Shown here: piece by piece, positions 8,946-28,878 of the stretch
Layout of the letters: every line of letters begins with the position of its first letter
How positions within the stretch are numbered: position 1 is the first letter of the stretch
NCBI GenBank assembly: GCA_964291625.2
Contig: OZ220089.1
Span: 3,040,001 to 3,104,000 of the forward strand
Reading direction: 5' to 3'
Length of the DNA stretch: 64,000 nt
Origin: Candidatus Latescibacterota bacterium
Lineage (GTDB): Bacteria; Latescibacterota; UBA2968; UBA8231
Notes under the pieces: model-generated
Told to the model about the DNA's origin: nothing
What the model saw: only the letters and a program-made list of their open reading frames with translations
The model's database searches: none
Position numbers and translations under genes: made by a program

Positions 8946-9300
8946 GCGGATCCCCTCTCTCAGATGGTGCTGTTGGGGGTTGGAGCGGTGCTTGATCAGG
9001 TCGTGGTGGAAGGAGCAGCCACCGGCCTGCAGAGTAACGGGCCGTTCCCGGTCGGTGGCGGCGTCGGGGATCTTCATTTCCTTGCGCTCCCCGACCATCC
9101 ACGGTTCGCTGTCGTCAACGGCGTCGAACTTGTGGCTGCCACTCAGCCCCGCCAAGACGACTGCCAGGCTCAACCGGTGCGGGTGGTGCGTCCGCGTGCG
9201 CATGGTTCATCCCTCCTCTCTCTTCTTTGGATCGGGGTGCAGAGTCATGCCCCCTCCCGGGTACTCGGCCAACCTCTTCGCTGTCTTCCCCAAGGTGCTG
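8946..9300 (-). pseudogene. Relic 5' end plus leader of a partner-type gene (paralog of the 22770-23561 start)
   Basis: MRTRTHHPHRLSLAVVLAGLSG resembles MRTRHTHPLILAVVLVALTG. The upstream ~95 nt (9205-9300) closely matches 23565-23658. Confidence 0.6.
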
Positions 9301-9520
9301 TGTCCAGCTCCAATGAGTAACCGAAACCCCTGCGGGCGTGGATCAACCTTTGGACTGTCGGCTGGATTATTGATCAGGACTTCCTTTCGCCACATGACGC
9401 AGCTTTGGTCATCAGGGTGTTAGCGGAGTCTATCGAGAGGCAATGTGGTAATGTGAGCCAGTAGCCTCACCCTGAGATTGGACCCCTTGGATAGTTGGCG
9501 GCGGCCAGACGACGGATGAG

Positions 9521-9544: not shown

Positions 9545-9571
9545 GGACACCACCGCCTTGGGAAATCCTCT

Positions 9572-12500
9572 CTACCGGATGAGGGCGAGCTTGCCCAGAT
9601 GGATTCTGTCTCCGGCGATCAGGCGGTAGAGGTAGATCCCCGATCCGACCGGCCGGCCCCGGTCGTCGACGCCAGGCCACGCCAGGGCGTGCAGGCCGGC
9701 CTCCAGGGGGGTGTTCTCGTAGAGCCGGGCCACCGTCTGTCCGGTGAGGCTGTGGACGGACAGGGTCACCTCCCCCTCCTCGGGCAGGGCCAGGTGGATC
9801 AGGGTCTGTGAGTTGAACGGGTTCGGCGCCGTCAGCACCCCGAACCCCGTCGAGTCCGCGAAGGCGGCCACGGGCTTGAACCGGGCCGATCTCTGCTCCT
9901 CGGCCGGCACGGTGTAGTAGCCGTACGGTCCCATGCCGACAGAGTTTCTGGCTCGCACGCGGTAGCGGTGCTGCTCGCTGTTTGGCGAGGACGAGTCGGT
10001 GAATTCCGTCGAGGTGACGGTGGTTTCCGAGTCCCAGAAGAAGGTCCCTCTCTTGCTCCAGTAGTACGTCGTGATCGCCGATCCGTTGTCCTCGGGCTCG
10101 TCCCAGGAGACGGTCACGGAGTTGGCGGAACTCCGGCCGTGGCTGAACCCGCCGGGCGCGTCCGGCTTGCCCGCCGGGGTCGCCGAATCGCTGGACGGCG
10201 GCCCGAACCCCTCGGAGTTGTGGGCCCGGACCTGGAAGTCGTAGGGGGTGCCGTTGTCCAGGCCGGTCACCGTCTTGGTGCGGCTCGTGCCCGTGGACTG
10301 CCAGGTGGTGCCGTTGCGCCGCCACTGGTAGTAGTCGATGGCGGCGCCCTGGTCGTCGGCCGCGCCCCAGGAGAGGCGGACCTGGCCGTCGCCGCGCACG
10401 GCGTCGAAGTCGGGCGGCGCCTTGGGCTTGTTGGCGCGGACCACGCCCTGGGTGCGGCCGGAAGCGCTCTTGCCGGAGCCGTGGTTGTCCGAGTAGGTCC
10501 GGGAGGCGACCAGGTGCCGTCCGACGGCGCCCTTCCAGGCCGTCCAGGTGTTGCCGACCCTGGGGACGTTGTCGCCTGGACCGTCCTGTCCCCGTGCGGC
10601 GGCCGCTTCCGAGCTCCAGCTCCAAGGATCTCCTCTGACGCCTCCGTCCTCGTCGGTGAGGACGGCATTGACGGTCTCGCCGACGCGGGGGCTGTCCGGG
10701 GTGACGGTGACCTCGCCGGGATCGTCCTCGTTGCCGACGGCGATGGTCACGGCGTAGCTGTGGCTGGCGCCGTGCGGGTCGGTGGCCGTGACCGTGGTGG
10801 ACTGGCTGGTGGCATCGACCTCGTAGTTGGGCGCCTCGTCGAAGGCCAGGGTCGTCGATTCACCGGAAGGCCCGGACGTGGGACTGACGCTGAAGCCGGA
10901 GCCGGTGGTCCAGGTGAGGCGGTCGCCGTCCGGGTCCGTGCCGGTGTAGGTGCCGACGGGGGTGGTGTCCTCCGGGACCGTGGGGTTGGCCGGGCCGGTC
11001 ACCACGGGGGGTCGGTTGACGGGCGTGACCGTGGCGGTGGCCGTTTCCGTGCCGCTGGTGCCGGCGCTGTTGCCGGCGGTCAGCTCGAACTCGTAGGCGC
11101 CGGCGGCCAGCCCGGTGATCCCGGCCGACGTGGAGGTGGTGGTGCGCGTGGTCCACGTCGTACTTCCCGAGAGCCGATACTTGTAGGTGTAGGTCACGCT
11201 GGCGCCGCAGTCGTTCGGCGCCGTCCAGGCCAGATCCACCCGTCCCCGACCGCCGGTGGCCGAAAAACCGGGGATGGCGCGAGGGGTGTTGACCTGCACC
11301 GCGGCCGTGGTCCTGGTGGCGGTGTTCCGGCTCGAGGCGTTGTCCCCGTACTGCACGGTCACCCGGATCGTCTGGCCCACCAGCGAATTGGACGGCAGAT
11401 AGCTCTGCGTCGTGGAGGTCGTCGCCGGGCTGCGGGAAGAGGTCTGCGGAATCCACTGCCAGCCGTAGGGGAAGCCCGGCGGCGAGTCGGAAGACTCCGT
11501 GTTGATGCCGCCGTCGGCATCGGTGAGAGTGGCCTCCAAATGGGCGCACGTGCTCGGCGGGTCGGGGGCCAAGGTGAGGGTGCCGGGGGCGCCCGTGACC
11601 GTGGCGGTGGCCGTCTCCGTGGCGCTGTTGCCGGCGCGGTTGCCGGCGGTCAGCTCGAACTCGTAGGCGCCGGCGGCCAGCCCGGTGATCCCGGCCGAGG
11701 TGGAGGTGGTGGTGCGCGTCGTCCACGAGCCCCCCGAGAGCCGATACTTGTAGGTGTAGGTCACGCTGGCGCCGCAGTCATTCGGCGCCGTCCAGGCCAG
11801 ATCCGCCCGCCTCTGACCGCCGGTGGCGGTGAAGCGGGGGATGGAGCGCGGAGCGTTGGCCCGCACCACCCCCGAGGTCGTGGTGGCGGTGTTCCGGCTT
11901 GAGGCGTTGTCCCCGTACTGCAAGGTCACCCGGATCGTCTGGCCTACCAGCGAATTGGACGGCAGATAGCTCTGCGTCGTGGAGGTGGCCGTCGGGCTGC
12001 GGGAAGAGGTCTGCGGAATCCACTGCCAGCCGTAGGGGAAGCCCGGCGGCGAGTCGGAAGACTCCGTGTTGATGCCGCCGTCCTCGTCCCGGAGGGTGCC
12101 TGTCGTGTGGGCACAGGTCTGCGGGGCGGTTGGATCCAAGGTCACCGTGCCCGGCTCGTTGACGTTGGTCACGGTCACGGTCACCGTCCGGGTGGTGTCC
12201 TCCTCCGGCGAGCCGTCGTCGGTGGCCCGGATCTTCACCGTGTAGGTGTAGCTGGTCAGGGCCTCGTAGTCCTTGGCGCTTTGGAAGGCCAGGACGCCGC
12301 TGTCCCGGCCGATGCGGAACGTGCCGCTCCCCGTCACCAGCTCCCAGGTGACGGAGTCGTCTTCCGGGTCGGTGGCCGTGTAGGTGGCCACCTCGGTGGT
12401 GTTCTCGGGCACCGACTTGCTCGCCGGGCCCGAGATCGCCGGCGGCTCGTTGACGTCGGTCACGTTCACCGTCACCTCCCGGCTCGTCGAGGCCGACCCG

Positions 12501-15500
12501 TCGGTGACCCCCGCGGTCACTCGGTAGGAGCTCTGGGTCTCGTGGTCGGGCGGGTCGTTGAACTCGAGCGTCTGCGACGACCCGGAGCCGGTCCACGCCT
12601 CGAAGGCCGAGGCGTCGGCGCCGGACAGCGTCCAGCTCAGCGCCCGGGTCGGGTGGCAGCCGCTCGAGCGGGTCACCGTGTAGGTGGCCACCGCCCCGGT
12701 GCCGTTCTCGGCGTAGGAGACCGGGCTCGACTCCGACGCCGTCAGCGTCAGCACGCAACTCGGCGGCGGCGGCACCGGCCCGGAGTTCCCGCCGGCGCTC
12801 TTGTCCGAGCCGTGGGCGTCGTCATAGGTCACGGTGACTCGCAGGCGGTAGTCCACATTCTGGGCCGTCGGGGTGTACTGCCCCGTGGGGCTGAAGGTGT
12901 CGCGGGCGCCGCGCGGGGCGTCCGCGTGCGACCAGTGCCAGTTCCGGTGGTTCCTCACACCGCCGTCCGGATCCTCCACGGTCGCGGTGACGGTTTGCCC
13001 CACTTTCGGCGGGTTCGGCGAAAAGCTCACCACCCCCGGCTCGTCCACGTTTCTCACCGACACCGACACGGCCAGGGTGTCGGCGGCCTTCCCGGGGTCG
13101 GTGGCCACCACCTCGACGCTGTAGACGCTGTCGCCGTCGGCATCGGCCGGCGCCTCGTAGTCCGGCGCCGCCCCGAAGCGCAGGGCCCCGGTCGAGCCGA
13201 TCGTGAAGGCCGACGAGTCGGCCCCCGCCCTCGACCACGTGACCCGGTCGCCGTCGGCGTCCGTGGCCGCATAGGTCCCCACGCGGGTGCTGTCCTCGTC
13301 CACCGTGACCGCCGCCGACCCCGAGATCACCGGGGCCCGGTTGGTCGAGAGCACCGGCCCGGTCGAGGTCGTGTCGGCGCTCTGGCGGCCGTGGGCGTCG
13401 GTGTAGCTCACCGAGGCCCGCAGAATCTGGCCGGCGGCCGAGGACGGCACCGTGTAGCGATACGACTGCGTCGACGGCGAGCGAGAGCGGCTTTCCGCGG
13501 TGCGCCAGGACCAGGTCGGTCCGGTGACCCCGTCCGGGTCGGTGAGGGTGGCCGTGGCCTGATCGCCCACATGGGGGCGGCTCGGCGACATCGTCACCTT
13601 CCCCGGCTCGTCCACGTCGGTCACCGTCACGACCACCGAAAACGGGGTGGAGGAATACACGCCTCCGTACTCGGCCATCAGGTCCACGTGGTAGACGTTG
13701 TTGCCGCCGTCGTCCACCGGCTGCTCGTAGTCGGGCCGGCTCTCTTCCACGAATTCGAGGGTGTTCCCGTCCACCCGGAACCGCGGCGCATCGTCGCCGC
13801 TCAGGGACCACGTCACCGGCGCCACCGGCGCGTCCGACGGGTCGGTGGCCCGGTAGGCGGCCACCGTCCGGCGATTCTCCTCGACCTTGACGCTGTCGGG
13901 CCCGACCACCTGCAGGGTCACGTCCAGAAGGTCCACCGTGGCCGTCGGATGCGCGCCCGGAGCGATCCCGTCCGGCAGATCCTTGAACCCCACAAGCACC
14001 GACTCGTCGTCGCTGTCGGCATCGGGGCGGGCCACGATCCGGAACGAGTCGGTGGCCGCCGACGCCGTGAACGACACGGTGCTGTCCGCCGCCAGGTCCA
14101 CCGTCTCGAAGTCGCCGGCCTCGGTGCCCGGACCCGGCCGCACCGTCACCTTCACCGTCACCGCCGCCACCGGCGCCCGGGGCATGTGCACCTTCACCGT
14201 CGCCGTGTCCCCGTCTTCCGTGGCCACGTACGACGAGGCGTCGAACGAGACCGTGTCCGGCCGCGGCACCACCGGGCCGACGAAGTCGGTGCCTTTCCCC
14301 CGGCCGGCCCCGTTGATCGCCCACACCTTGAAGGTGTAGGCCGTGCCGTTCGTCAGACCGTCGACCGTGTGGCTCGTGGTCACCTCCACCGTGTCCTTCG
14401 TCGTCTCGCCGCCGCCGTCCTGGCGATACCCGTAGCCGGTGAGGGCCGAGCCGTGGGTCTTCAGCGGCGGCTCCCAGGTCAGGTGCACCTTTCGGTGCCC
14501 CGGCGTCAATCGCAGGTTCAGGGGCACCGACGGCACATCGATGACGGGGTCCGACCAAGCGCTCTCGGCTCTCTGGCCCGCCCCGTGACGGTCGCGGTAG
14601 GTCACCTTCGCCATCACTTTCCTGCCCACCAGCACCGGGTGGGGATAGACGGTCTGCTCTCGGAGGGTGGGCAGGGGATCGCCGGCCGCGGCCTGGCGCC
14701 CATAGGTCTGGCTGCTCCGGGACCAGACCCACTGCGGATTCTCCTCGACCCCGTCCGGGTCCCGCAACGTCGCCGTCAACGCCTGGTTGGCCCGGGGCCT
14801 CGTCGGCGACAGGGTCACCCGGCCCGGCTCGTTCACGTCCGTCACCGTCACCGTCACGTCATGGGTCGTCGAGTCCGGCGGGGTGCTGGTGTTTCTGGCC
14901 TTCAGCCTCACCTGGTAGACGTTGTCCCCGGCCGCCACCGCGGCCTCGGTCGCCGTGGCCGCCCGCGCCCGGTCGCCCGGGGCCTCGAAGTCCGGCGGCG
15001 TCTCGAAACGGAGACGGCCCGACGCGTCGATCTCGAGGGTGTCGGCATCCACCCCCTCCAACGACCAGGTCACCGGCGACACCGCCGCCCCCAGCGTGTC
15101 CAGGGCCTGGTACGTGGCCACCGTGTCGGTGCCGTTCTCGGCGAAGGAGACCGAGTCGCGGCCCGAGATCGTCAGCCGCCGCGCCGGCGTCACCGACGAC
15201 AGAAACGACACCCCCCGGACCTGAGTGCCCGAAAGCGCCCGCACCTGCAACCGGTAGCCGACCCCGTTGGTCAGGGACGAGACCGTCGTCGACGTCGTCG
15301 ACGCCCCGCTGCCCGGCACCGGCTGCCAGTCCGTCCACGCCCCGGCCCCCGCCTTCGACCGGTACTGCCAGGTGACCCCGGCGTAGCCCGGCGAGTCCCA
15401 CGACAGCGCCGCCCGCCCGTCGCCGCCCCGGGCCCGGAGGGGGAACACCGCCGCCGCCGAAGAGACGCCCCCCGGCTCGCCCTCCGAGTTGACCGCCCGC

Positions 15501-18500
15501 GTCCGAAACTGTTGCACCGACCCCCCGTCCAGGCCTGACACCAGGTGCCGGATCGAAGTCAGCTCCGCGGTCGTCACCGCCTCCCAGTCCGACCCCCACG
15601 CCGCGCCGCCGCTTTTCTCCTGCGCCTCCAGCGTCATCGGCGCCACCGTCGAGCCGGTCTGCGGCTGGCACCACCCTCTGCTCGGGCATTGCCAGGTCAT
15701 CGTCACCGACCGCCCGTCCACGGCCATCGAGTCCAGGCGCGGCGGCCCCGAGGGCGGCGGCACCACCCCGCGGGCCGGAAAGGCCGACGACCAGGCCCCG
15801 GCGCCGCTGTCGTTGACCGCCTGCAACTGGTACCGAAGACGGTGCTTGACCACCACGTCCCCGGCGTCCCGGTGCGTGTAGCGCAGCGTGGTCGCCCCCG
15901 GCGTCGCCACCGTGTCGTACGACGACCACGCCTGCGTGCCCACCACCGCCCACTGCGACCGCAGACGATACCCGGTCACCGCCGGCGTCGCCGACACCGC
16001 CCCCCAGGCCACGTCCATCCCCGTGGCGCCCGGACTCGCCGTCAGACCCGAGGTCGGCGCCGGCGGCACCCCCGGACCCGAGCCCGGCGTCGCCGACACC
16101 TGCGCAGCCACCCCCTTGCCCACCCCGTTGACCGCGCGAACCTCGAACAGGTATCGCGTCCCGTTCGTCAGGCCCTCCGACACCGTGTGGCTCACAGTCT
16201 GCGCGTTGCTGCCCGAAATCGCCTCCCAGTCAGGGTCCCACGACAAGCCCCCGTCGGCGCTCTGCCGGAACTCATACCCCGTCAGAGCAGACTCGTGGTC
16301 CGGGGCCGAACTCCACGTCAGCTCCATTTGCTCGTGGCCTGCCGCCGCCGAGAAATCTCCCGGCTTCCCCGGCACCCCCGCCACCACCGCCGCCGTGGGC
16401 CCGCTCTGCGCGTAGTTGTACAACGTGCCCTTTGAATCACGCGCCCGGTAGCGCACCATCACCCGCAGCTGGCGACCCATGTCCCGGCCCAACGGCGTGT
16501 AGGTCCCCAGCGCCGGATAGCGAACCAACCGCGACGACGGCGTCAAGGTCGCCCAAGGGTCCGTATCGCTGCCCCGCCAATGCCATTGAAAGAACGCCCG
16601 CTCCAGGGTGCCCCCGTCCGGGTCGTCCAGCACCGCCGTGAGCCCCCGGCCCACCTGAGGCGGCGCCCCGACCAAACCCACCGTCACTCCGCAATTCGTC
16701 AAGGTGGTGTTCGTCAGAGCCAGGGTGCCCCCATCCTCCGACTCAAGACAACGCGACCCATCCCGGATTGTCGCCCCCGAAAGGTCCGCCACTCCCGTCG
16801 CCGCCACCCGGATCCCATACCAATCGTCATTGGAAGCATCGTCCGCATCATTGGACGAGCGGAAGGTGATGTTGCCTGCGCTCGCGTTGAGAGTGCCCAG
16901 GACGATCAACTCCGACCGGCTCTCGCTATCGGCCAAGAAACGCACCTCGGTCCCAGAAGTGATCGTGAGAGTAACATCCGGCCCAATCGTCAGATCACCA
17001 CCAACCCTTACGCTGCCACTCCAGGAATCATCCATCTCGATCGTGCCCGCCCAATAAGGACTCAAGTCGGCCATCACCTTCGACCCGCTCCCCCGGATAT
17101 TGGAGACCCTCACACTTGAATTATCGCCAGGCATGTTCGGATCGAAATTCGGGCCCATCCACAGCCTGCTGTTTGGGGAGGTAAAGTCACTAAGCTCCGT
17201 CCCGCCAGTCGAGCCAGGGAACGGATCTCCATCGTAGGTCGAAAGGTCCGAGAGATTGTCTGCCTCTACCAAGTCAATGAGATCATAGAACGGGTCGATC
17301 CCCTCGACTTCCCCCAGCAGGCGCGTCTCTAGTACGTGCCAAACTAGCAGGCCATCATGGACTGAGTCAGCCAGCGCCATGTTCCAGCCGGCGCCGGTCT
17401 GCCGATTCTCGACCAGAAAGAAGTCGTCCCTGGTGTGTAGTGCACGAACTCGATACACATCGTCCTGGTAGTCCGAACGGTCGGCGGAGTAGGTCAGCTC
17501 CACGCCTCTCTCAAAGTCCGTAACATCCGTTGGAGTAATCCAGCCCAAACTAATCCGGTGCTGGGGCGCCAAGGGTGCCGGATTGTCGCCTCGCCGTGCC
17601 GTCCCCTTGTTTCCCCCCGAAGCCATAAGACCCCACTCATTATAGCTCCGGTTATGGGGGCTATCAGGAGCAGAATAGTAGTCACCTAGACCCAAGACAT
17701 GACCAAACTCATGGCAATGAACTCCAATGTGCGAGAAAGTAGCACGGTTGCGCTCCACGTTCTCCAGTCCTACCTCCTCCCATCTCTCAGACATAAGGTA
17801 CACACCGGCAAAAAAGCTTGGATGCAGACCGCCGTCACTATACAAATTTCCAGCATAGATGATGCAGACCTTCTTTGTGTGGAGATCAAGGGAGAGATCG
17901 ATCTCTTCCTGACTGGCCACCGAGTCCCATACGGCATCTCTGAAGTGAAATTTGGTATTCCCATGGAAGTAGCTCTTAGTTTCACCCAGTTGCACCCATA
18001 TGGGCACACCCGCCTTTGTCGCTGTGTTGACAACCCGTCCCTTCAGAGTATAGGTACCCTTCGACATGTCTGCCCAGTACTGGCGCATACTGCCAAACAC
18101 CGCTTCACCATCGGGCGAGGCCCTGTCGCCTGTATAGCTGTCTCCAAATAGCAGGTTCGTAAAGTCACTCATAGTGTACTCGGGATAACCCCCGGATTTC
18201 CTGTCGCCTGCAAGATCCATGGGCCAATCTGCATCATTCTGATGTTTGACATCGGAGAACTCCACCAAGACGACCAGAAGTGACTCGGGCAGGACTGCGC
18301 GAGCGCCGTGTCTGGCGCCATAGTCCGACTCAAGTCCTCGGTGTCTCCGAGCCCTATCCCTCAGGACAGCCGCGTTCTGCCTACCCAGTCGCCTCACTTC
18401 TCTAGCCCCGTCATCTCGACCCACCCGGAATGAACTCGGAGCCGCATGGCCGGCGCTGTCGTAGCGGGCATAGTGATAGTAACCCGTACTCGAGTCCCGA

Positions 18501-18727: not shown

Positions 18728-18728
18728 T

Positions 18729-19559
18729 CTAGTTTGACGAGGAGCGTGTTACCCACTCCTTGATTTCGCCAAAGGATTTCTCCTTCGCGACAGTCGCTAC
18801 CTCTTCAGTTGACTTCAGATAGTATCTCATTTCGCCACCTGCGTGTTCCCAACCGATCCAATAGCCGGAGTAGAGAACGCCAAGTCCAGGTGCGAATACG
18901 CAGTAGGAACCCCCTTCGAAAGCGTTGAAGTCGAACACGTACAGCTCCACTATCTCGTCCAATACACTCTCTTGCCAGAGGCCGCGCTGTCTGATCCGGT
19001 TGAGATGCGGAATCGCATCCCACTCATGCCGCGCAAAGGGGCCACCACGAGAGAGACGAAAGCCCTCCCATTCTACGGATAGCTCCCCTCCCAATAGTAC
19101 CCCTCCGACGGATATCTCGCTGACGTTTGCCTGTTCATAGATCACATACCTGGCTCGGGGTTCCCTGGCCAGCAAGGCATCGTCTACCGGTGGTCCCCAT
19201 ATGTCCCAAAGGAGCTCTTCCGAGGCATTCCGCACATCATACTGCCAGGTTCTCCCGGCCTCGTCGACCCGGTACAGGCCACCGTCATCCAATTCGAGAT
19301 AGGTCCGGTCTCCTATCTGATGGCTCCTAACGACCTTGAGGGTTTGGGTGCCGACGTCTTGCGAATCCCGATAGGCGATTCCATCTTCGTCGCGGCCGTA
19401 CTTGACCTTCTCGACTGAATAGGTCCAAGACTGGCCGACTCTCACGGACGTAGGAAGGGGAAAGGGAGGACACCAAAGGCTTTGCTCTCCCAGCCCAGCG
19501 GTAGGCAGCATCAAGATGCTCCCTACTACCCCAATAGCAGGAATGATGGATTTGCTCAC
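18729..19559 (-). CDS. Secreted partner protein (276 aa), family shared with 22770-23561 and 27277-28080
   Basis: Signal peptide, VGQSWTY motif, C-terminal VATVAKEKSFGEIKEW. Stop is 1 nt before the ATG of the M6 giant gene; lower GC. Confidence 0.85.
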   Translation of the reverse strand: MSKSIIPAIGVVGSILMLPTAGLGEQSLWCPPFPLPTSVRVGQSWTYSVEKVKYGRDEDGIAYRDSQDVGTQTLKVVRSHQIGDRTYLELDDGGLYRVDEAGRTWQYDVRNASEELLWDIWGPPVDDALLAREPRARYVIYEQANVSEISVGGVLLGGELSVEWEGFRLSRGGPFARHEWDAIPHLNRIRQRGLWQESVLDEIVELYVFDFNAFEGGSYCVFAPGLGVLYSGYWIGWEHAGGEMRYYLKSTEEVATVAKEKSFGEIKEWVTRSSSN

Positions 19560-22500
19560 GTGGACCTCCTTCGATTTCGATCTCCGAGAGTCAGAGGCTT
19601 TGTCACCAAACAGATGAGTTGCTTCGGCTGGTCGATGTCCCGTTCGTCAGGCTCGAGACGGTCACGCTCACCGCCGCCGTGGGACCGGGCGCCCTTGGAA
19701 CGGGCCGCCGGGGGAATCGTCACCCAGCGGTCCGGATCCCACGTCGCGCCCCCGTCCGAGCTCCGGCGATACTCGTTCCCGGTCACCGGCGAGCCGTGGG
19801 CCTCGGCCGGGTCGCAGGAGATCATCACCTCGCGGCTGCCCGCCACGGTCGTGCAGTTTGCCAGGGCCCCCGGCCGGCCCGCCGCCACCGCCGCCGTGGG
19901 CGCGCTCTGCGCGTAGTTGTACACGATCGCGCCGCCCCCGAACCGGGCCCGGTAGCGAAGCGTCGCCCGAAGCATCTGCCCAAGCACCTCCTCCTTCGGG
20001 ATGTAGGTCCCCTTCGCCGGGTAGCGCACCCTCGTGGACGGGGCCAGGTTCGCCCAGGCATCGGTGGCGCTGGCCCGGCCCTGCCACTGCCAGAACTCCT
20101 CGTTCAGCGTGCTCCCGTCCCCCGGGTCCAGAGACGCCGTGAGCCGACCCCCCAAGACCGGCGGCGTCCCCGTCAGATCCACCGTCAGACCGCAGTTGGT
20201 CAGCGTCGTGTTCGTCAGGCTCACCGTCGAGGCGCCGCGCAACTGCAGGCAGCGACGCCCGTCCCGGATCGTGGCCCCCGACAGGTCCGCGATCCCCGTC
20301 GCCGCCACCCGGATCCCATACCAATCGTCGTTGGAGGCATCGGCCGCATCGCTGGCTGAGCGGAAGGTGATGTGGCCCGCCCCGGCTTGAAGGGTCCCGC
20401 CATTCTCCACGATCAACTCCACCCGGGCCTCGTCCTGCCCGTCGCTTTCTTCGTCGGTGTCCTCGAAGCGGACCTCGGTCCCCGCCTCGAGGCGCAGGGT
20501 GGCCGCATTCGTGCCGTCGCCGACGACGAGGTCGCCGCCGACGGTCACCGGGCCGCTCCACCGGTGTTCCCCCTCGGCGATCGTCACGCCGTTCAGCGTC
20601 GCCGTGCCCCCGCTCTCGACCCGCACCCCGTGCGTGTCCGTGCGGGCCCCGGCCCGATCCACCGTACCGAAGGTCACCCCCGTGCCCACCGTCAGGTGGG
20701 CGCCGGCGGACACGATCAGCTCCGGATAGTCGCTGGCGTCGGGGCCGGTCGGGGCCAGGAAGTTCACCGTCGTCCCGGCGGCGATCGTCACGCTCGTGCC
20801 CCTTTCGATCGTCACGTCCCCGCCCACGTACACTGAATCCGGGCCCCAGGTCTCTATCCCGTCGATGGGGCCGACCCAGTGATCGAAATAGATGTCGACC
20901 AAGGCGCTCCCGGTGGCCGGGTTGGCTGTATTCCTGGTCACCCGGATGTTGCGAAACGCCAGACGCGAGGGGGCGTCGTCGTTGTTGGGGCAATGGAAAG
21001 AGTTGCGCCGAAGGTGACTGTCGTCCGCGGCCTGGGTGCCCACCGGGCGCAGGTCGGGACGGGCCAAGGTGGGCGTGGCCGGCAAGCCGGTGCCGTTCGT
21101 GTGGGTCGGCAGGGGCAGGAAGGTGGACCGCATCCCGTTGCCTTCCAGCGCGCCGAACGGGTCGGAGATGCGGTCAATGCAGGGATACACGGCGCTGCTG
21201 CTGAAGCTCCGCGGCGTCCGCCCTTCGGTAATCGTCCCTGTGAACCCCGTCGCAGGAGTGCACGGAGGGTGGTTGGTGTCCGGCTGGGGGGGGCAGCCCA
21301 TGGTGGCATTGTACACCGAACGGTTGTCCGCCGGCACCAGACGGGGTTCGTCCTGCTCCGCCCCCGCGCTCCGCTTCCAGATCATCAGGCCCGGCGCCTG
21401 GTCGAATCGATACCAGCCCGTGTACCGTCCGAACCCTTCGGCGGTGCGGAACTCCACGGCGATCTCCGAGCCGTCGGCGCCTTCGATGAAGTAGTACCGC
21501 CCTGGTTGGATCTCCTTGTTCTCTTGGCTGGCCGTAATCGTCTCCCAAGTGCCCCAATTCAGGTCCCGCAGGTAAGTCGGGTTGTACGGGTTCGGGCAGG
21601 ATGCAAAAGCATACTTGTAGGAGCTGCTGGAGTTCGGCTGTCGCCCCTCGACCACCGGCCCGTCGATCCCGCTATTCATGGTGCCCAGCCGGCCATTCGG
21701 CCGCCTTGTCCAAAGGACAGCCGGTTGGCGCATGTGGCCGTTCGGCGCGTGTACACCTCCGTCCCATCCCAACGGCCGTCCGGATGCGAGAAGCCCAACA
21801 GGTGGCCGATCTCGTGCGCGTGGATGCCGATGCCTCCGAACCGGTCCGCCTCGTGGGAGTCCCTTCCGGAGCCCTGCCGCTCCGCGGCCACGTAGCGGAA
21901 ATCGATGTCGGCGAGTATGGCTGGATTTGGATTTGCACTGGTAATGCCGTCCGCCTGCGGATGGATCTGGCTTCGGACCAGCGGGTGCCCGGGGTCATTG
22001 AATTGGGCTCCGGCGTAGAGATACAACACCTTGTGGCGCAAGCGCCGCGCTTGGCTGGCATTGACGCCGGGAGGGTCGTACGCCGTCGAGTCCAGATCCC
22101 AGGACCGCACCGAATCGAGCGTTGCATTTCGGGCGTGAAGCCAGTAGTCACTGTTCCACAGGGTGCGTCTGGCCCGCTCCGCGTAGTAACCCTTGGTCTC
22201 CGGTAGCTCTACCCAGATGGGGTAGCCATCCCTGTCCTCCTCGTTGAGCATGCGCACCCGCAGCTCGAAGTCGGGGTCGGAGGTTTCGTCGCCGCCGGAG
22301 ATCACGTGGAAGTAGTGCCGCAGGCTGCCGAACACCTCCGGCAGCGTTTCGCTGACGCCGTCGTCGTTGTCGGCCACTATCTGGGTCCCGGTAAACGCCG
22401 GGATATCCACGCCCGTCTCCCCATTCTCGGAGTAGCGATACCCGCCGCTGAACATTCGCTCCCAATCGTCCATCGTGTAGCTGGACGTCCCCGGTTCCAG

Positions 22501-22773
22501 GGCGCCGGTGGTGCGGTTTACGGTGTAGCCGTGCGGCCGGTCGTGCAGGTGGTAATCGAAGGTATCCGCCCGAACGCTGACGTTGCCCAAGGCGTCAGTG
22601 ACGCCGGGGTGCCGGGCCGTGGTGTCCCGGAAGGTGACCAGCACCACGGACAACGTGCACGGACTGGTCCAGGCGTTCTGCAACTGGCCCGCCGCCGGGG
22701 CCTGGGCCTTGAGAGCGTCGGCCCCGGCAACCACCAGCAGGGCCGCCGGAAGAAGGCGACGGACGATTGTCAT
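19556..22773 (-). pseudogene. M6-like metalloprotease cassette (type B head) truncated in its first FN3 domain; one frameshift at ~21685
   Basis: ATG 22773 (MTIVRRLLPAALL), VVLVTFRD, HAHEIGHLLG. Joining MAGW to GTMNSG needs one extra G in a G run. Carries the conserved linker DDWYGIRVAATG; no C-terminal PNPFN domain. Confidence 0.8.
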
Positions 22774-23561
22774 CGTGCGGATCCTTTCAGTTTCCCCCAG
22801 CTCGAGGGGGCCACCACCGCAGGCGACTGCTTCAGCGCATCCTCCGAGCGGACCGTGCGGGTGGTGCCGCTCTGGCCGGATGCACCACCGCCGCTGGCCT
22901 CGACCAACACGGCGTGGGTGGAACCGAAGACGTGGTCGTACACCGGGTAATCCGGCCCTTGGAGCCACTCATGGCACGAGAGGAGGCCATACCCGGCCTG
23001 GAAGTTCACCAGACGGTTCGAATACCAATCGGCTTCGCCTTCATGCTCCGACACCCAGTCCCAGGCGTCGTGGCCACGAAACGTGAATCCCATTACCCGC
23101 GCGGGGTCGCTGGGAATGGCGCGCCGTACCACTTCGTCGTCTCCGTGCGTCAACGGAATCGTGTAAATGGGGGGCCCCTCGAACCGGAAGAACGACCGCT
23201 CGCCGGTGTCGGTGCGCTCCATCAGCTCGCTGCCCTTCCAGCGCAGCTTCTTCCCCACCGGGCAATGCGGCGGCGGCGCCAGAAAGCCCGCCGGCACGTC
23301 CGACAGGACGTAATACGTCGTGTCGCCAATCACCTCCGTTCGTTCCACCGTGATCGTGACCGTGTCCTCATAGCCAAATTGGCCCTCGGCGCTCGGGAAG
23401 ACGCCGGCATACGGGTCACCCACCCAATGCAGGAAGGTCCACGAATTGCCCACCGCCAGGGGCAGGAAGTCGGCGGGCTCGTTGTCGGGGGCTGCGGCCG
23501 GTCCGGTCAAGGCCACCAGGACGACGGCCAGGATCAACGGGTGCGTGTGGCGCGTGCGCAT
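22770..23561 (-). CDS. Secreted partner protein (263 aa)
   Basis: GGAGGG RBS, signal peptide, DFLPLAVGNSWTF, C-terminal VAPSSWGKLKGSAR. ATGA overlap with the downstream protease cassette. Confidence 0.85.
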   Translation of the reverse strand: MRTRHTHPLILAVVLVALTGPAAAPDNEPADFLPLAVGNSWTFLHWVGDPYAGVFPSAEGQFGYEDTVTITVERTEVIGDTTYYVLSDVPAGFLAPPPHCPVGKKLRWKGSELMERTDTGERSFFRFEGPPIYTIPLTHGDDEVVRRAIPSDPARVMGFTFRGHDAWDWVSEHEGEADWYSNRLVNFQAGYGLLSCHEWLQGPDYPVYDHVFGSTHAVLVEASGGGASGQSGTTRTVRSEDALKQSPAVVAPSSWGKLKGSAR

Positions 23562-23713
23562 GGATCTCATCCCTCCTCTTCTCTTCTTTGGGGCGCAGAG
23601 TGGTTCCCCTCCGGGTACTCCGCCAACCTCTTCGCTGTCTTCCCAAAGGTGTTGTGTGAGGTCGTGTCAAAAGGTGTGTAAACGAGATCAGGCAGCCTCT
23701 CTTGATCCCCTCC

Positions 23714-24037
23714 TTACAGACGCTCGAAGTCTTCCAGTTGGTAACTCGTGGTCCCTGGCTCCAACGCGCCGTCGGCGTTGATCGTGTAGCCGTGCGGCAG
23801 GTCGTGGGTGTCGTAGTCACAAATGCGCCCGCTATTAACGCGCCCGCGATTGTCGCAGGATGGGCTGTAGCTCGGCCAGACCCCTGTCGTGTCCTTGAAG
23901 GTGACCAGCACCACGTCCAGCGTGCACGGGCTGGTCCAGCTGTTGCGAAGGTCGTAGACCGGCTGTTGGGCCGACAGGGAGCCGGCCCAGAACAGCGTCA
24001 GCAGGACCGCCCTCGATGCAATGGCGCTCGGTCTCAT
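23714..24037 (-). pseudogene. Truncated 5' end of another type B M6 protease (107 aa)
   Basis: NSWTSPCTLDVVLVTFKDTT...HDLPHGYTIN...ALEPGTTSY parallels the protein starting at 22773 and stops early. Confidence 0.8.
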
Positions 24038-24115
24038 CTCTCCTCCCCTTCTTTGACTCGCCCCCAGGATGAGCTGGGCGCCGACGTGCCGTGCCTCGCA
24101 TCCTCATACGTCACC
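24034..24115 (-). pseudogene. 3' tail fragment of a partner gene
   Basis: Reads LVTYEDARHGTSAPSSSWGRVKEGEER*, with an ATGA overlap to the 24037 start. Same SWGxxK tail as 22770-23561. Confidence 0.65.
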
Positions 24116-27100
24116 AGTCCGGCCCCCACGCCGCGCCGCCGCTTTTCTCCTGCGCCTCCAGCGTCATCGGCGCCACCGTCGAGCCGGTCTGCGGCTGGCA
24201 CCACCCTCTGCTCGGGCATTGCCAGGTCATCGTCACCGACCGCCCGTCCACGGCCATCGAGTCCAGGCGCGGCGGCCCCGAGGGCGGCGGCACCACCCCG
24301 CGGGCCGGAAAGGCCGACGACCAGGCCCCGGCGCCGCTGTCGTTGACCGCCTGCAACTGGTACCGAAGACGGTGCTTGACCACCACGTCCCCGGCGTCCC
24401 GGTGCGTGTAGCGCAGCGTGGTCGCCCCCGGCGTCGCCACCGTGTCGTACGACGACCACGCCTGCGTGCCCACCACCGCCCACTGCGACCGCAGACGATA
24501 CCCGGTCACCGCCGGCGTCGCCGACACCGCCCCCCAGGCCACGTCCATCCCCGTGGCGCCCGGACTCGCCGTCAGACCCGAGGTCGGCGCCGGCGGCACC
24601 CCCGGACCCGAGCCCGGCGTCGCCGACACCTGCGCAGCCACCCCCTTGCCCACCCCGTTGACCGCGCGAACCTCGAACAGGTATCGCGTCCCGTTCGTCA
24701 GGCCCTCCGACACCGTGTGGCTCACAGTCTGCGCGTTGCTGCCCGAAATCGCCTCCCAGTCAGGGTCCCACGACAAGCCCCCGTCGGCGCTCTGCCGGAA
24801 CTCATACCCCGTCAGAGCAGACTCGTGGTCCGGGGCCGAACTCCACGTCAGCTCCATTTGCTCGTGGCCTGCCGCCGCCGAGAAATCTCCCGGCTTCCCC
24901 GGCACCCCCGCCACCACCGCCGCCGTGGGCCCGCTCTGCGCGTAGTTGTACAACGTGCCCTTTGAATCACGCGCCCGGTAGCGCACCATCACCCGCAGCT
25001 GGCGACCCATGTCCCGGCCCAACGGCGTGTAGGTCCCCAGCGCCGGATAGCGAACCAACCGCGACGACGGCGTCAAGGTCGCCCAAGGGTCCGTATCGCT
25101 GCCCCGCCAATGCCATCGAAAGAACGCCCGCTCCAGGGTGCCCCCGTCCGGGTCGTCCAGCACCGCCGTGAGCCCCCGGCCCACCTGAGGCGGCGCCCCG
25201 ACCAAACCCACCGTCACTCCGCAATTCGTCAAGGTGGTGTTCGTCAGAGCCAGGGTGCCCCCATCCTCCGACTCAAGACAACGCGACCCGTCCCGGATTG
25301 TCGCCCCCGAAAGGTCCGCCACTCCCGTCGCCGCCACCCGGATCCCGTACCAATCGTCATTGGAGGCATCGGCCGCCTCGTTGGACGAGCGGAAGGTGAT
25401 GTCCCCCGCCCCGGCTTGAAGGGTACCGCCATTCTCCACGATCAACTCTGAACGGCTCTGATCCGCGCCACCACCAGCCTTGTCCTCCCCAGCGTTGTCC
25501 TCTCCCGCCAGAAAGTGTACCTCGGTTCCACCATCAATCCGAAGGTCAGAGCCCGAAGCAATCGCCACATCGCCACCAACGTGTACCCTGCCATCCCACT
25601 CAAGAGACTGATTGATCGTGCCCACCCAATAGGGACTGAGATCCGCCGTCACAGTCCTCCCGGTAACGCTGATGTTGGAAACGCTCACACTTGACGATGC
25701 CCCCGAAAAGAGCTCGCTACTAGGCGTAGTATAATCTGCAAACGTAGTATTGCCACCCGATCCAGGAAACGGATCCCCATTGTAGGTCCCCGGCTCATCA
25801 TCATCGTCGGCCTCTACCAAGTCGACAGTATCCCAATCCATCCCTCCCGGCCGATCCCGAATGTGCCAGATCAGCAGTCCATCATGGGTTGAATCGGCCA
25901 GTGCTCGGTTCCAGCCCATGCCGGTTTGCCTGTTCTCGACCAGAAAGAAATCCTTGTCCAGATGTATGTGGGCCCGGCTGTAGTCCGGGCTGTTTCGCGA
26001 TCGAATTCGATACACAACGTCCTGGTATTCATTCCTCTCTGCGGAATAGGCCAAGCTCTGGCCGGTCATCAGGCTCGTCACTTCGATCGGAGTGACCCAC
26101 TCCAACATGATTCGGTGCCAAGGCGACAAAGGTGCGGGATTGTCACCTCTGCGATGTACTCCCTTCCAATCTCCAGAGGCCATGAGGCCCCACTCTCCAT
26201 AATCCGTGGACACACCATAGTGGTCACCCAGTCCCAGGGCATGACCGAATTCATGACAGTGAGTCCCTATGTGGGAGAAAGTAGCCCAATTTCGTTCCTC
26301 GTTCTCCACCGTCTCATCCGCCCATCTCTCGGACATGGAGTATGCCCTGCCGCTATACGCAGGCCATAACCCCCCTCTACCGGAAGGTCCAGCATAGGCA
26401 TTTCCAGCGTAAATGATGCACACCACGTTCGTGGCACTCAGAGAAACGTTGGCCTTCCCGCCTGGCAGCCGCCACTGCCGAATCCCTGAACGCAGGGAAG
26501 GTCCCCGCGCTGTAGGAGGCCTTACTCCCACTCAGCTCAATCCATTCGGGTACACCGTTGTCCCTCTTGTTCACAACCCGCCCCGTCAGGGTGTAGCCTC
26601 CCTTCGACATGTCAAGCCAGTACTGACGCATACTGCCATAGACCGCTTCACCGTCCGGCGAGGCCCTCTCGCCTGTATAGCTATCCCCGAATAGCATGGT
26701 CTCGAAATCACTCACCGTGTACTCGGGATAGTCTGACTTGTCTCTCTCGGCGTCAGCAGGAAGACCTGCCATCGGCCAATCTTCAGGGTTCTGATGCTTG
26801 ACATCGGAAAACTCCACCAGGAGAACCAACAGCGCCGTCGGAAGTACTCCGTGCGAACTCCTCAAGACCCTACCGTCAGGTCCCATTTCGCGGTACTTGC
26901 GAGCCCTGTCTGCCAACGTGGCTTCGTTCTCCAAGGCCAGCCGCCAAACCTCGCTTGTCCCGTCGTCTCGACCTACGCGCAAAGAACTGGGAGTCGCATG
27001 CCCCGCGGTGTCGTAGCGAGCATAGTGATAGTAGCCGGTACTCGTATCCTGTACGACATATCCTTCCTTGACAGCCAGATAGCGGCCGAATTCATCGCCG

Positions 27101-27270
27101 AACTCGCGGACGGCGATACGGGTCCCGTCCGGCTGCAGGACCTCCCGGGTACCTAGGTCCATGCTATTGGACCACGCTGGCTGAAGCCAACAGAGAAGCA
27201 GGGAAATGAGTACGCTATACCACGCCAATGTGAATCCTCCAATCCCATGCAGATCTTTCTCGAAGCGCAT
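24111..27270 (-). pseudogene. M6-family metalloprotease cassette (type A head) truncated after about 2.5 FN3 domains; frameshift at ~26451
   Basis: ORFs 26377..27270 and 24111..26531 join at REG/NVSLS. Motifs LLVEFSDVKHQN, HCHEFGHALGLGD, FFLVENRQ. The 3' 1.3 kb is nearly identical to the 3051-aa gene; stops at GPDW*. Confidence 0.85.
24114..25402. repeat. ~1.3-kb direct repeat, copy 2
   Basis: Matches 15584-16872. Confidence 0.95.
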
Positions 27271-27276
27271 GAGGTC

Positions 27277-28080
27277 CTACTCCCTGTTCGATGCGCGTGG
27301 TGCCACCCATTCCTTCACTTGGCCGAAGGGAACGGGACCTGCCACAGTCGCCACTTGCCCGTGTGACTCCAGATAGTAGTCTGCTGAAGGACTATGCTCT
27401 CGAGGACCCCGCTCATAGCCACAGTACAAGACGCCAAGGCCAGGTGCCACGAGAGAATAGGATCTCACTCCGGCAGCAACGAAGTAATATTCATACAACT
27501 CGGCTATCCCATCCCATACATCACTCTCTTGCAGTCGCCCGGCCCTCTCTCTCCATGGGTCCATGTACCCTCTGATGAAAAACGGATGGGGGCCAATGCC
27601 CGAAGCCCATGCTTCCCTCTGAAACGGGCCACCACGGGAAAAAAAGAAGAAGTCATACTCGCTGTTATATGCGGCTCCAGCAAGTGATATCTCCTCAACG
27701 TCATTTTGGCTATACCAGACATACCCGTCCGAATGGTGCCCATTCTGGAATCCCTCGTCCAGGTCCCAAAAGACCTTTTCCGTGCCGGTTCCTGTATCGT
27801 ATTGCCAGGTTCTGCCGCCTTCATCGCACCGGTAGAGCTTGTCATCATCGCTCAACTCAAGATAGGTGCGGTCTCCTATTGTATGGCTTCCAACCACCGC
27901 GATGCTTTCGGTGTTGTATCGTGAGTCCCTCCATACTGTCGAGTACGTCCAGTAGTGACCCACTTCGGCCGACGAAAGGAGGGAATAGTAGGGAAACCAG
28001 CAGAGAAACCCCCACGCTCCAGTGGGGAGTATCCAGATGCTCACAAGTGCCAGAGTGGCAGGGAGGATGGCGTTCCTCAT
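27277..28080 (-). CDS. Secreted partner protein (267 aa), paralog of 18729-19559
   Basis: ATG 28080 after AGGAG. Shares VGHYWTY, SHTIGDRTYLEL, GRTWQYD, RGGPF, APGLGVLY with the paralog; C-terminal VATVAGPVPFGQVKEW. Confidence 0.85.
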   Translation of the reverse strand: MRNAILPATLALVSIWILPTGAWGFLCWFPYYSLLSSAEVGHYWTYSTVWRDSRYNTESIAVVGSHTIGDRTYLELSDDDKLYRCDEGGRTWQYDTGTGTEKVFWDLDEGFQNGHHSDGYVWYSQNDVEEISLAGAAYNSEYDFFFFSRGGPFQREAWASGIGPHPFFIRGYMDPWRERAGRLQESDVWDGIAELYEYYFVAAGVRSYSLVAPGLGVLYCGYERGPREHSPSADYYLESHGQVATVAGPVPFGQVKEWVAPRASNRE

Positions 28081-28114: not shown

Positions 28115-28320
28115 AGTGTGCCCCAAGAACTGGACAGGTGGCTGAGCGAGACTTTCGGTCCACCGACCCACTGTCCAGAAGGGCTTGGATGACGAGGAAG
28201 GTGCAAGACGCACTCGGCTCAGTTCAAGGCCAAGGTCCAAGGTGGAGGCCCTGCGTGAGCGACGGACGGTCAACGAGCTGGCCCGCAAGCTCTCTGTCCA
28301 CCCCCAGCCAGTGCGGATAA
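28115..28320 (+). mobile_element. IS3-family remnant (left end plus degraded OrfA)
   Basis: End-like sequence with internal inverted repeat ctggacag...ctgtccag. Frameshifted MTRK...(SAQFKAKV)..EALRERRTVNELARKLSVHP resembles the IS3 OrfA HTH. Confidence 0.6.
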
Positions 28321-28341
28321 CCGCAGCGTGTTCGCCCCCTG

Positions 28342-28637
28342 GGCGTCGCCACCGTGTCGTACGTAGACCACGCCTGCGTGCCCACCCCCGCCCACTGCGA
28401 CCGGAGACGATACCCGGTCACCGCCGGCGTCGCCGACACCGCGGCCCAGGCCACGTCCATCCCCGGGCCGCCCGGGCTCGCCGTCAGACCCGACGTCGGC
28501 GCCGGCGGCACCCCCGGACCCGAGCCCGGCGTCGCCTTCACCTGCGCCGACACCCCCTTGCCCACTCCGTTGACCGCCCGAACCTCGAACAGGTATCGCG
28601 TCCCGTTCGTCAGGCCCTCCGACGCCGTGTGGCTCAT
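28342..28637 (-). pseudogene. Isolated FN3 fragment homologous to 15900-16195 and 24430-24725
   Basis: SEGLTNGTRYLFEVRAVNGVGKG...YRLRSQWA...YDTVATP. Confidence 0.8.
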
Positions 28638-28878
28638 CAGCGCGATCATGCGGATGAGTGCTCCTCGTGGGCCTGCTGTGCCGAAGGCAGATGCGAGCCT
28701 GCCGAAGGTCAGGCAAACACCTCCCGGCTCGACTCTCTATTCTACCGTACGGGTATGTGGTTCTTGTGTGCCCCCTTGGCGGAAGGGCGTGTTTTTTTGT
28801 GTGTCTTTGGGGGAATTTCTCCAAGTCGGGCCGGAATCGGCCCTGAAACCCAAGATCAGCCGCCACCAAGGTGAGCGG

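What the first reader, a model, noticed from the sequence alone, without database searches (positions are those of the whole stretch)
9572..28080. Candidate head-swapping system: upstream array of truncated [partner + protease head + homology arm] cassettes feeding one full-length giant protein
Seen: four co-oriented units of a small secreted partner gene coupled to an M6-like protease gene (28080/27270, ~24115/24037, 23561/22773, 19559/18727). Only the last unit carries the full stalk and C-terminal domain. Two upstream protease genes stop shortly after a linker conserved with the full gene, and one shares ~1.3 kb of near-identical DNA with it (24114-25402 = 15584-16872). Inference: one crossover in that arm would delete 8530 bp and put the 27270 head, with its partner, on the stalk. 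Established: Rhs and CdiA polymorphic toxins keep orphan C-terminal tip/immunity pairs downstream of the main gene. This locus looks like the mirror image, with N-terminal heads stored upstream because the putative sorting domain is C-terminal.
Basis: partly seen in the sequence, partly recalled or inferred. Interest (0 to 1): 0.88.

Follow-up and report, generated by a model that had tools for sequence, protein, structure and literature searches.

The report
Decaying array of swappable protease heads
A tandem cluster of giant secreted surface-protein genes in a sponge-associated bacterium holds one intact gene and several truncated, frameshifted upstream copies; they are likely leftovers of past exchanges of the enzyme "head" rather than a working store of spare heads.

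Summary
On the minus strand lie partner+head units A (28080/27270), C (23570/22773) and D (19559/18727). Only D (3051 aa) is whole: M6-like protease, beta-helix linker, FN3/cadherin stalk, T9SS sorting tail. A and D share 1281 of 1289 bases (24114-25402 = 15584-16872), while their heads are only about 50-80% alike.

The "unit" at 24115/24037 is only a relic: the last 25 codons of a partner plus 107 codons of a head. A more decayed remnant lies at 28311-29564.

The cluster sits in a ~29.7-kb island, bounded by a 28-nt direct repeat, that two same-genus genomes lack.

Across the family, heads and arms have clearly been re-assorted at the conserved linker (AU tests p 1e-6 to 1e-30). Partner and head travel together, and their G+C differs from the stalk's.

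So head replacement by recombination is real over evolutionary time, a mirror of Rhs tip displacement. The upstream copies look like displaced or deleted relics. The predicted 8530-bp crossover would give a frameshifted gene. Active switching could not be tested, because only contigs were available, not raw reads.

The parts
1..6984 (-). Unit E stalk ORF with T9SS tail. It runs on to 8 bases beyond the window start. Its stalk is 72% identical in protein to giant D residues 990-2934.
6988..7018 (-). 31 bases present in the assembly but absent from the otherwise identical X1 contig. With them, head E and stalk E are separate frames. Without them, they form one frame.
6989..8305 (-). Unit E head: a secreted non-M6 domain with no Pfam or NCBIfam match and no paralogue in the genome.
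9149..9303 (-). Relic downstream of giant D: an intergenic stretch plus the first ~18 codons of a pC-like partner. It is 80% identical to 23513-23657.
9572..18727 (-). Giant D, intact, 3051 aa: signal peptide, M6-like head (HEFGH), beta-helix-like linker, FN3/cadherin stalk and T9SS type A C-terminal domain.
15584..16872 (-). Arm of D (residues ~619-1048). 1281 of 1289 bases are identical to 24114-25402.
18729..19559 (-). Partner D (276 aa, signal peptide). Its GTG start overlaps the stop of the unit C frame (GTGA).
19556..21682 (-). Unit C, distal part: rest of the head, two linkers, and an arm that stops at about D residue 837-850. It is 56% identical in protein to the D arm.
21684..22773 (-). 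Unit C, head start (HEIGH motif). The frame breaks at ~21683, where contigs of two other runs carry one more base.
22770..23570 (-). Partner C (266 aa), intact. The predicted fold is an all-beta half-barrel.
23714..24037 (-). Fragment B: the first 107 codons of a third head type, 75-87% identical to the start of metagenome protein P0121.
24036..24113 (-). Last 25 codons of a deleted partner B, joined directly to the end of arm A.
24111..26531 (-). Unit A, distal frame (806 aa): M6 catalytic part (HEFGH), linker and arm. The stop comes right after the end of homology to D.
26377..27270 (-). Unit A, proximal frame (297 aa): signal peptide and N-terminal part of the head. The frame changes near 26440-26456.
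27277..28080 (-). Partner A (267 aa from the ATG at 28080), intact, 42% identical to partner D.
28311..28639 (-). Remnant: an A/D-like FN3 piece, 90-97% identical in DNA to D and A.
28640..29195 (-). Stretch unrelated to the giant. Its core, 28922-29057, recurs upstream of other cargo loci in this genome.
29195..29564 (-). Remnant: a C-like linker 2 piece, 90-98% identical in DNA to unit C, with stops and frame changes.
29599..29626 (+). Right copy of the 28-nt direct repeat that bounds the island. The left copy lies about 130 bases before the window start. There is one copy at the empty site in G006 and G007.

Best explanation
This is a tandem family of T9SS-sorted giant surface-protein genes in a lineage-specific island, in which only D is certainly intact and units A, B, C and an upstream remnant are truncated, frameshifted copies. 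These copies are likely relics of deletions and of head replacement by recombination at the conserved linker/arm, not a working cassette store.

Shown:
- The gene anatomy, the frameshifts, the joints, and the 99.4% identical A/D arm.
- The island's absence from two congeners.
- Head/arm incongruence across the family.
- Co-variation of partner with head, and the G+C step at the head/arm boundary.

Inferred:
- [Partner + head] modules are grafted onto stalks by homologous recombination in the linker/arm. This would be the mirror of Rhs C-terminal displacement, because the sorting signal here is C-terminal.
- The A/D identity is the footprint of one very recent exchange of that kind: gene conversion, or insertion of a circle carrying an arm.
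- Heads that lose their stalk then decay. Head A has a single lesion and otherwise open frames, which fits a truncation about as young as the repeat.
- The partner is predicted to be a periplasmic beta-barrel-like protein that works with its cognate head. Its role, chaperone or inhibitor, is a guess.
For: Anatomy and family membership:
- Domains and motifs of giant D.
- A T9SS is present: SprA_N scores over its cut-off, and two PorU matches score over theirs.

Lesions:
- Head A's frame changes near 26440-26456, and head C's at ~21683. X1 contigs cover both places with 0 differences and 0 gaps.
- A 3038-nt contig in runs X3 and X4, about 93% identical over 20551-23462, has one extra base at 21683.
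- Neither site is a long homopolymer.
- Apart from these lesions the head frames are open. Head A has 0 stops in 275 + 347 codons, against 7-16 stops in the other frames. Head C has 0 in 363 + 661.

Joints that are scars of deletion:
- A partner tail at 24113-24036.
- Head B cut at codon 107 and joined to a copy of the sequence that follows giant D.
- A partner start at 9149-9203.
- A remnant with stops at 28311-29564.

Recombination at the linker/arm:
- The A/D arm has 8 mismatches in 1289 nt, crowded at the head-side edge, about 10 residues before the conserved DWYGIRV.
- There is a checkerboard of head and arm identities.
- Head columns reject (P0121,P0123), p 8.6e-11, and (P0126,P0128), p 2e-6. 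Arm columns reject (P0123,P0128), p 1e-30.
- Unit C is a chimera.
- G+C steps at 16650-16950.

Partner and head as one module:
- Bit scores co-vary over 36 pairs of 9 units, rho 0.79. The pairs are not independent.
- The partner-head gene pair recurs at 6 or more other loci in the genome.

Decay is common in the family:
- In G046, another genus, an array has 4 intact partners with heads of 183, 341, 471 and 1125 aa, the 471-aa one with two frame changes.
- 15 of 29 head matches outside G000 lie in open frames under 1000 aa, though some are on short contigs.

The island:
- In G007 and G006 the flanking genes lie about 137 and 187 nt apart.
- The island is bounded by a 28-nt repeat, 26 of 28 identical.
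Against: - Each stored head has only one lesion, and its frames stay open over hundreds of codons. That would also fit copies kept usable by selection or repaired by conversion.
- The A arm is near-identical to D's, so crossovers there should occur. No data here exclude that variants with head A on the stalk exist in the population.
- The clades tested were named after the identity table had been seen, and they rest on 6-7 sequences from unnamed metagenome contigs.
- The AU test did not reject (C,F) in the arm columns (p 0.21), though F is a long, barely homologous branch there.
- I cannot tell gene conversion, circle insertion and plain deletion apart for the A/D repeat.
- The partner's role is unsupported. 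Its fold matches are weak: best Z 8.2, LolA/LolB-like rows Z 5-6.7.
- Only one other array (G046) was examined in detail.
Confidence: 0.62

Rival explanations
1. One reading: a working silent-cassette store. Upstream [partner + head + arm] units would be kept so that a crossover or gene conversion in the arm puts a new head and its partner onto the single stalk, giving population-level head switching.
For:
- Heads A and C keep open frames apart from one lesion each.
- Head/arm re-assortment is real in the family.
- Partners are intact.
- A similar upstream array exists in G046.
- Orphan Rhs fragments were shown to recombine with the main gene under selection (PMC3967940, abstract read).
Against: - Both stored heads are frameshifted in the assembly and in X1 contigs, so the proposed deletion would give a broken gene.
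- Unit B has no arm and no partner.
- C's arm is only 56% identical in protein to D's, and the longest exact match is 35 nt.
- The joints carry scraps of deleted genes.
- The island is absent from two congeners.
- A tandem duplication or a deletion with one end inside a gene leaves the intact copy last without any selection.
- No read evidence for rearrangement could be obtained.
Confidence: 0.18
2. Plain duplication and decay with no head exchange. All units would descend from tandem duplicates that diverged in place, with arm identity due only to concerted evolution of the more conserved part.
For: - Tandem paralogues with frameshifts and deletion scars.
- Decaying arrays in G046.
- Gene conversion alone can explain the A/D tract, with an edge where divergence rises.
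Against: - Head and arm trees conflict strongly.
- Unit C's head is about 70% identical to a paralogue 2.3 Mb away, while its arm is of the A/D kind.
- Unit E has an unrelated head on a stalk 72-81% identical to D's.
- G+C steps at the head/arm edge.
Confidence: 0.12
3. Assembly artefact: the repeats would be a misjoin or a duplicated collapse of separate loci.
For: The assembly differs from the X1 contig by 31 bases at 6988-7018, so it is not error-free.
Against: - X1 contigs bridge 15584, 16872, 24114 and 25402 by 38-73 bases each with 0 differences.
- They also cover heads A, C and D exactly.
- The two arm copies differ at 8 sites.
Confidence: 0.03

Closest known systems
Rhs loci with dissociated (orphan) C-terminal tips: 'C-terminal displacement' (Jackson et al. 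2009, PMC2935791, passages read) and orphan activation by recombination (Koskiniemi et al. 2014, PMC3967940, abstract read)
   Same: - A variable enzymatic end with a small adjacent cognate gene.
- Fragments that keep a piece of the conserved part.
- Identical conserved fragments beside distinct variable ends within one locus.
- A different G+C in the variable part.
- Strings of fragments next to one intact gene.
   Different: - The polarity is mirrored: the variable module is N-terminal and the fragments lie upstream.
- The conserved part is an FN3/cadherin stalk with a T9SS tail, not a YD-repeat shell.
- The variable domain is an M6-like protease, not a known antibacterial toxin.
- The partner is secreted and untested as an immunity protein.
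- The stored heads here are frameshifted.
CdiA-CT/CdiI orphan modules (recalled, no paper read here)
   Same: Orphan variable-end and immunity pairs that share a short homology stretch with the main gene.
   Different: Same differences as for Rhs. The secretion route is also different: two-partner secretion rather than T9SS.
M6 (InhA-like) metalloproteases and T9SS cargo proteins with a type A C-terminal domain
   Same: Giant D passes Pfam PF05547 and TIGR04183, carries an HEXXH motif, and the genome encodes SprA and PorU.
   Different: D scores below the NCBIfam TIGR03296 cut-off (93.6 against 110.8 bits). It is also far larger than usual, and paired with a dedicated upstream partner gene of no described family.
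Birth-and-death evolution with gene conversion in tandem surface-protein families (general concept, recalled)
   Same: Tandem paralogues, pseudogenes, homogenised conserved segments, and lineage-specific content.
   Different: Here whole [partner + head] modules are re-assorted at one conserved linker.

Membership tests
Peptidase M6 (InhA-like) domain | Match to the family profile above the curated cut-off | tested here: met
   - Giant D scores 62.3 bits on PF05547 against a cut-off of 22, and both unit A halves score 29.6 and 32.6 bits.
- NCBIfam TIGR03296 scores 93.6 bits, below its 110.8 cut-off.
- Head C gets only a weak TIGR03296 match, E 0.0011, so 'M6-like' for the C/F/B type rests on 26-28% identity to D.
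Peptidase M6 (InhA-like) domain | Zinc-binding HEXXH motif | tested here: met
   HCHEFGH in D and in A, and HAHEIGH in C. That HEXXH defines zincins is recalled.
T9SS cargo (type A C-terminal domain) | C-terminal sorting domain above the cut-off, together with an N-terminal signal peptide | tested here: met
   TIGR04183 scores 27.5 bits against a cut-off of 23 at residues 2968-3043. A hydrophobic N-terminus is seen. No signal-peptide predictor was run.
T9SS cargo (type A C-terminal domain) | The genome encodes the T9SS translocon and sortase | tested here: met
   SprA_N (PF14349) scores 112.8 bits, over its cut-off. Two PorU (NF033707) matches score 571.7 and 536.7 bits, over the 420 cut-off. 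Other components were not searched.
Polymorphic toxin locus with orphan modules (Rhs/CdiA kind) | A variable end on a conserved delivery part, re-assorted among family members | tested here: met
   Checkerboard of head and arm identities, and AU tests. Polarity is mirrored.
Polymorphic toxin locus with orphan modules (Rhs/CdiA kind) | Orphan fragments keep a stretch of homology to the main gene | tested here: met
   - Unit A: 1281 of 1289 nt identical.
- Unit C: only 56% protein identity, with a 35-nt longest exact match.
- Fragment B: no arm at all.
Polymorphic toxin locus with orphan modules (Rhs/CdiA kind) | Orphan variable modules are intact coding sequence | tested here: not met
   Heads A and C each carry a frameshift, also in X1 contigs. 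B is a 107-codon stump.
Polymorphic toxin locus with orphan modules (Rhs/CdiA kind) | The adjacent small gene is a cognate immunity protein, and the variable domain is toxic to competitors | not testable with these tools
   The partner co-varies with the head. However, it has a signal peptide, no known family and only weak LolA-like fold matches. The complex prediction never ran.
Programmed cassette switching (pilE/pilS, vlsE kind) | Population heterogeneity at the expression site, from unidirectional conversion out of silent copies | not testable with these tools
   Only Logan contigs were available, and they cannot resolve a 1.3-kb identical repeat.

The most novel reading that the evidence does not exclude
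T9SS cargo genes of sponge-associated Gemmatimonadota evolve by 'N-terminal displacement', a mirror image of Rhs tip displacement. Mobile [secreted partner + enzyme head + arm fragment] modules insert by homologous recombination at a conserved beta-helix linker. This shunts the previous head and its partner upstream, where they can still be recovered by arm crossover. The partner is the head's cognate inhibitor or immunity-like protein.
Probability: 0.3. Interest if true: 0.75.

Novelty: new variant of a known kind. Interest (0 to 1): 0.45.

Why it matters
If heads with their partner genes are exchanged as modules on T9SS-anchored stalks, the logic of polymorphic toxin loci extends to a secretion system whose sorting signal is C-terminal. 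That logic is a constant delivery part, a swappable active end and a linked cognate gene. It would also extend to host-associated bacteria that are hard to culture.

It would also give a handle on how sponge symbionts diversify their surface enzymes. The partner family has 329 hits (E <= 0.001) in one search and no annotation, so it becomes a defined target for study.

As it stands, the locus mainly documents rapid birth, re-assortment and death of such genes in an accessory island.

Tried and rejected
Read-level test of the 8530-bp deletion:
- All 13 listed runs are kept as Logan contigs.
- Contigs break at the repeat edges and cannot phase a 1.3-kb identical repeat.
- None of the 15 joints listed is the predicted 8530-bp skip, but 59 more were not shown.
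- The listed joints, from X1, X3 and X4, have short sides (20-31 nt) in FN3 repeats. I take them as noise.

Expression: no RNA holder is listed.

Cover in other runs:
- X2 contigs cover parts of head D, partner D and the arm at 94-98% identity.
- X3 and X4 cover unit C.
- Heads A and D had little or no cover in some of these runs.
- Missing cover is not evidence and is not used.

Close orthologues:
- No same-genus genome has a close match to head D (best 47% over residues 19-132) or to head C (best 57%).
- Among long proteins, head A's best match is 48%.

Partner function:
- Pfam and NCBIfam gave nothing, even at E 1.
- A PDB profile search gave one chance-level hit, E 0.011.
- The Atlas best score was 0.89, to unnamed clusters, plus a weak DUF3108-like lead.
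- Complex prediction never ran because its queue was full.

Other checks:
- Phase variation at the frameshifts is rejected. The sites are GGG (against GGGG in the relatives' contig) and a mixed sequence, not long tracts.
- My first reading of unit E as broken by a small tandem duplication is weakened. The X1 contig lacks 31 bases there and reads through.
- Earlier notes of this scan gave nothing.
- Literature searches found no paper on N-terminal head exchange in T9SS cargo. The terms were Gemmatimonadota/sponge/type IX secretion; type IX secretion/polymorphic toxin/orphan; and M6 metalloprotease/sponge symbiont/FN3/cadherin (listings only).
Full report
**What is there.** The window is G000:C1:3040001-3104000 of a 5.9-Mb, roughly 70% G+C genome. 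Partner homologues carry source names 'hypothetical protein [Gemmatimonadetes bacterium]'. Besides the likely source run X1, the runs that share words with the stretch are mostly sponge metagenomes.

On the minus strand, giant D (18727-9572, 3051 aa) has a signal-peptide-like start. It then has an M6-like metalloprotease head (PF05547 62 bits against a cut-off of 22; HEFGH), a beta-helix-like linker, FN3 and cadherin domains, and a T9SS type A C-terminal domain (TIGR04183 27.5 against 23 bits). The genome encodes SprA and two PorU homologues above their cut-offs, and about 50 frames with such tails.

Directly upstream lies partner D (19559-18729). It belongs to a secreted family of about 250-aa proteins with no Pfam, NCBIfam or PDB sequence match and 329 database relatives. 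A model of partner C (pLDDT 81.7) is an all-beta half-barrel. Its best structural match is a putative Parabacteroides lipoprotein (4fvs_A, Z 8.2, rmsd 4.9, 162 residues aligned), and LolA/LolB rows score Z 5-6.7. By the tool's own note these values may reflect only a common arrangement.

- The repeat 15584-16872 = 24114-25402 has 8 mismatches in 1289 nt and only one in 15593-16759. The heads upstream of it are 44-83% identical per 100 nt.
- X1 contigs bridge all four repeat borders and match heads A, C and D without a single difference. Misassembly is therefore unlikely.

Three things differ from the description.

- Head A changes frame near 26440-26456, and head C at about 21683. Both lesions are in the X1 contigs.
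- A 3038-nt contig in runs X3 and X4, about 93% identical over 20551-23462, has one extra base at 21683. Its other indels cancel in threes.
- The 'unit' at 24115/24037 is a stump: the last 25 codons of a partner (24113-24036), then 107 codons of a third head type. The full form of that head is seen in metagenome protein P0121.

The array is also larger than the given range. A remnant lies at 28311-29564, part C-like and part A/D-like, with stops. Downstream lies unit E, a secreted non-M6 head (8305-6989) followed by a stalk 72% identical to D residues 990-2934.

**Scars.** The joints carry pieces of deleted neighbours.

- Arm A ends at 24114 against the tail of partner B.
- Head B ends at 23714 and is followed at 23657-23513 by a copy (80% identical) of the sequence that follows giant D. 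That sequence itself contains the first codons of a pC-like partner at 9203-9149.

This points to a former array of complete units trimmed by deletions, or to insertion events that carried such joints.

**A tandem event with one end inside a gene.** Any such event leaves the intact copy last in the direction of transcription. 'Only the last unit is complete' therefore needs no selection.

**Recombination in the family.** Unit C, read through with X at its break, is 70% identical to paralogue F (C1:712465-719856) over residues 1-769. Homology to F then ends, and residues 734-1020 match D residues 564-837 at 56%.

Five metagenome homologues give a checkerboard of identities:

| Pair | Heads | Arms |
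|---|---|---|
| P0121 / P0123 | 41-48% | 90-98% |
| P0123 / P0128 | 83-96% | 24-39% |
| P0126 / P0128 | 20-49% | 80-91% |

AU tests on separate head and arm columns gave the following:

- Head columns reject (P0121,P0123), p 8.6e-11.
- Head columns reject (P0126,P0128), p 2e-6.
- Arm columns reject (P0123,P0128), p 1e-30.
- (C,F) in the arm columns was not rejected, p 0.21.

The clades were named after I had seen the identity table, and the set is small.

The switches fall in or near the second linker around the conserved DWYGIRV. The edge of the A/D identity tract lies about 10 residues before it. G+C drops from 0.70-0.76 to 0.49-0.60 over 16650-16950. Partner similarity follows head similarity: rho 0.79 over 36 non-independent pairs of 9 units. 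Partner-head pairs with overlapping stop and start recur at six or more other loci in the genome.

**Decay and context.** Apart from their single lesions, heads A and C have no stops in 622 and 1024 codons. The other frames have 2-26 stops per segment. They are therefore young pseudogenes.

For A this fits a truncation about as recent as the near-identical repeat. That favours one recent recombination event over an old stump that was later converted. I cannot separate conversion, circle insertion and deletion.

In another genus (G046) a similar array has four intact partners and heads of 183, 341, 471 (two frame changes) and 1125 aa. It was the only other array examined in detail. Of 29 head matches outside G000 at E <= 1e-20, 15 lie in frames under 1000 aa, some on short contigs.

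In same-genus genomes G007 and G006, the genes that flank the cluster in G000 lie only about 137 and 187 nt apart. The whole ~29.7 kb is therefore an island. It is bounded by a 28-nt direct repeat (26 of 28 identical) that is single at the empty sites. No integrase-like frame was found among the island frames that I scanned.

**Verdict.** Head exchange by recombination at a conserved linker, together with a linked partner gene, is well supported as an evolutionary process. It is a polarity-reversed counterpart of Rhs C-terminal displacement, where distinct tips sit beside identical core fragments of different G+C (PMC2935791, passages read). Orphan Rhs fragments can be activated by recombination (PMC3967940, abstract read).

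That this particular array is a functioning store is not supported:

- The stored heads are broken.
- One relic has no arm.
- Only A has a recombination-grade arm. The longest exact match between C and D is 35 nt.

Active switching could not be tested with the data at hand.

Noticed in passing
window 6988-7018: The assembly has 31 bases here that the otherwise identical X1 contig lacks (0 other differences over 3569 laid bases). With them, unit E's head and stalk are separate frames. Without them, they form one frame of about 2800 aa. This is either an assembly error or a polymorphism.
   Followed up: partly
window 29599-29626 and about 130 bases before the window start (G000:C1:~3039856-3039883): A 28-nt direct repeat (26 of 28 identical) bounds a ~29.7-kb island holding units E, D, C, B and A. 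G006 and G007 have one copy and no island. G002 has other T9SS-tail genes to the left of the same BNR gene. No integrase was seen in the island.
   Followed up: partly
window 28922-29057; also 42905-43039 and 54556-54691: A ~136-nt element, 79-80% identical between copies, lies upstream of several T9SS-cargo loci, in the same orientation as the genes. Further copies are at C1:3621569-3622016, 1297990-1298118 and 710798-710896. It may be a shared regulatory region. The depth of this bin was about 20 times that of its neighbours in X1.
   Followed up: partly
window 43433-52135 (+): A third giant (2900 aa) with 9 or more FN3 domains, a cadherin domain and a T9SS tail. Its C-terminal third is 44% identical to D. 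Its first ~550 residues match no family. Smaller tail-bearing genes end at 55801, 57643 and 59467.
   Followed up: no
G000:C1:1291321-1296312, 3622797-3624454 and 3997315-4003534: Tandem runs of two to four partner-family genes without a head after each one, so partners outnumber heads in this genome.
   Followed up: no
G000:C1:1557972-1568868: A paralogous partner + head + stalk gene is interrupted between head (1566183-1567817) and stalk (1557972-1564982) by a 487-aa frame (1564804-1566267), possibly a transposase. A 357-aa frame nearly identical to one flanking the C2:1098391-1107256 paralogue lies beside it.
   Followed up: no
run X3, a 1633-nt contig laid on window 9565-10277, 18391-18618 and 19157-19213: A low-depth (4.6) contig, 87-91% identical, joins a partner-D-like piece and the first ~110 residues of head D almost directly to the last FN3 and the tail. 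It could be a short paralogue, a deletion variant or a chimera in another organism.
   Followed up: no
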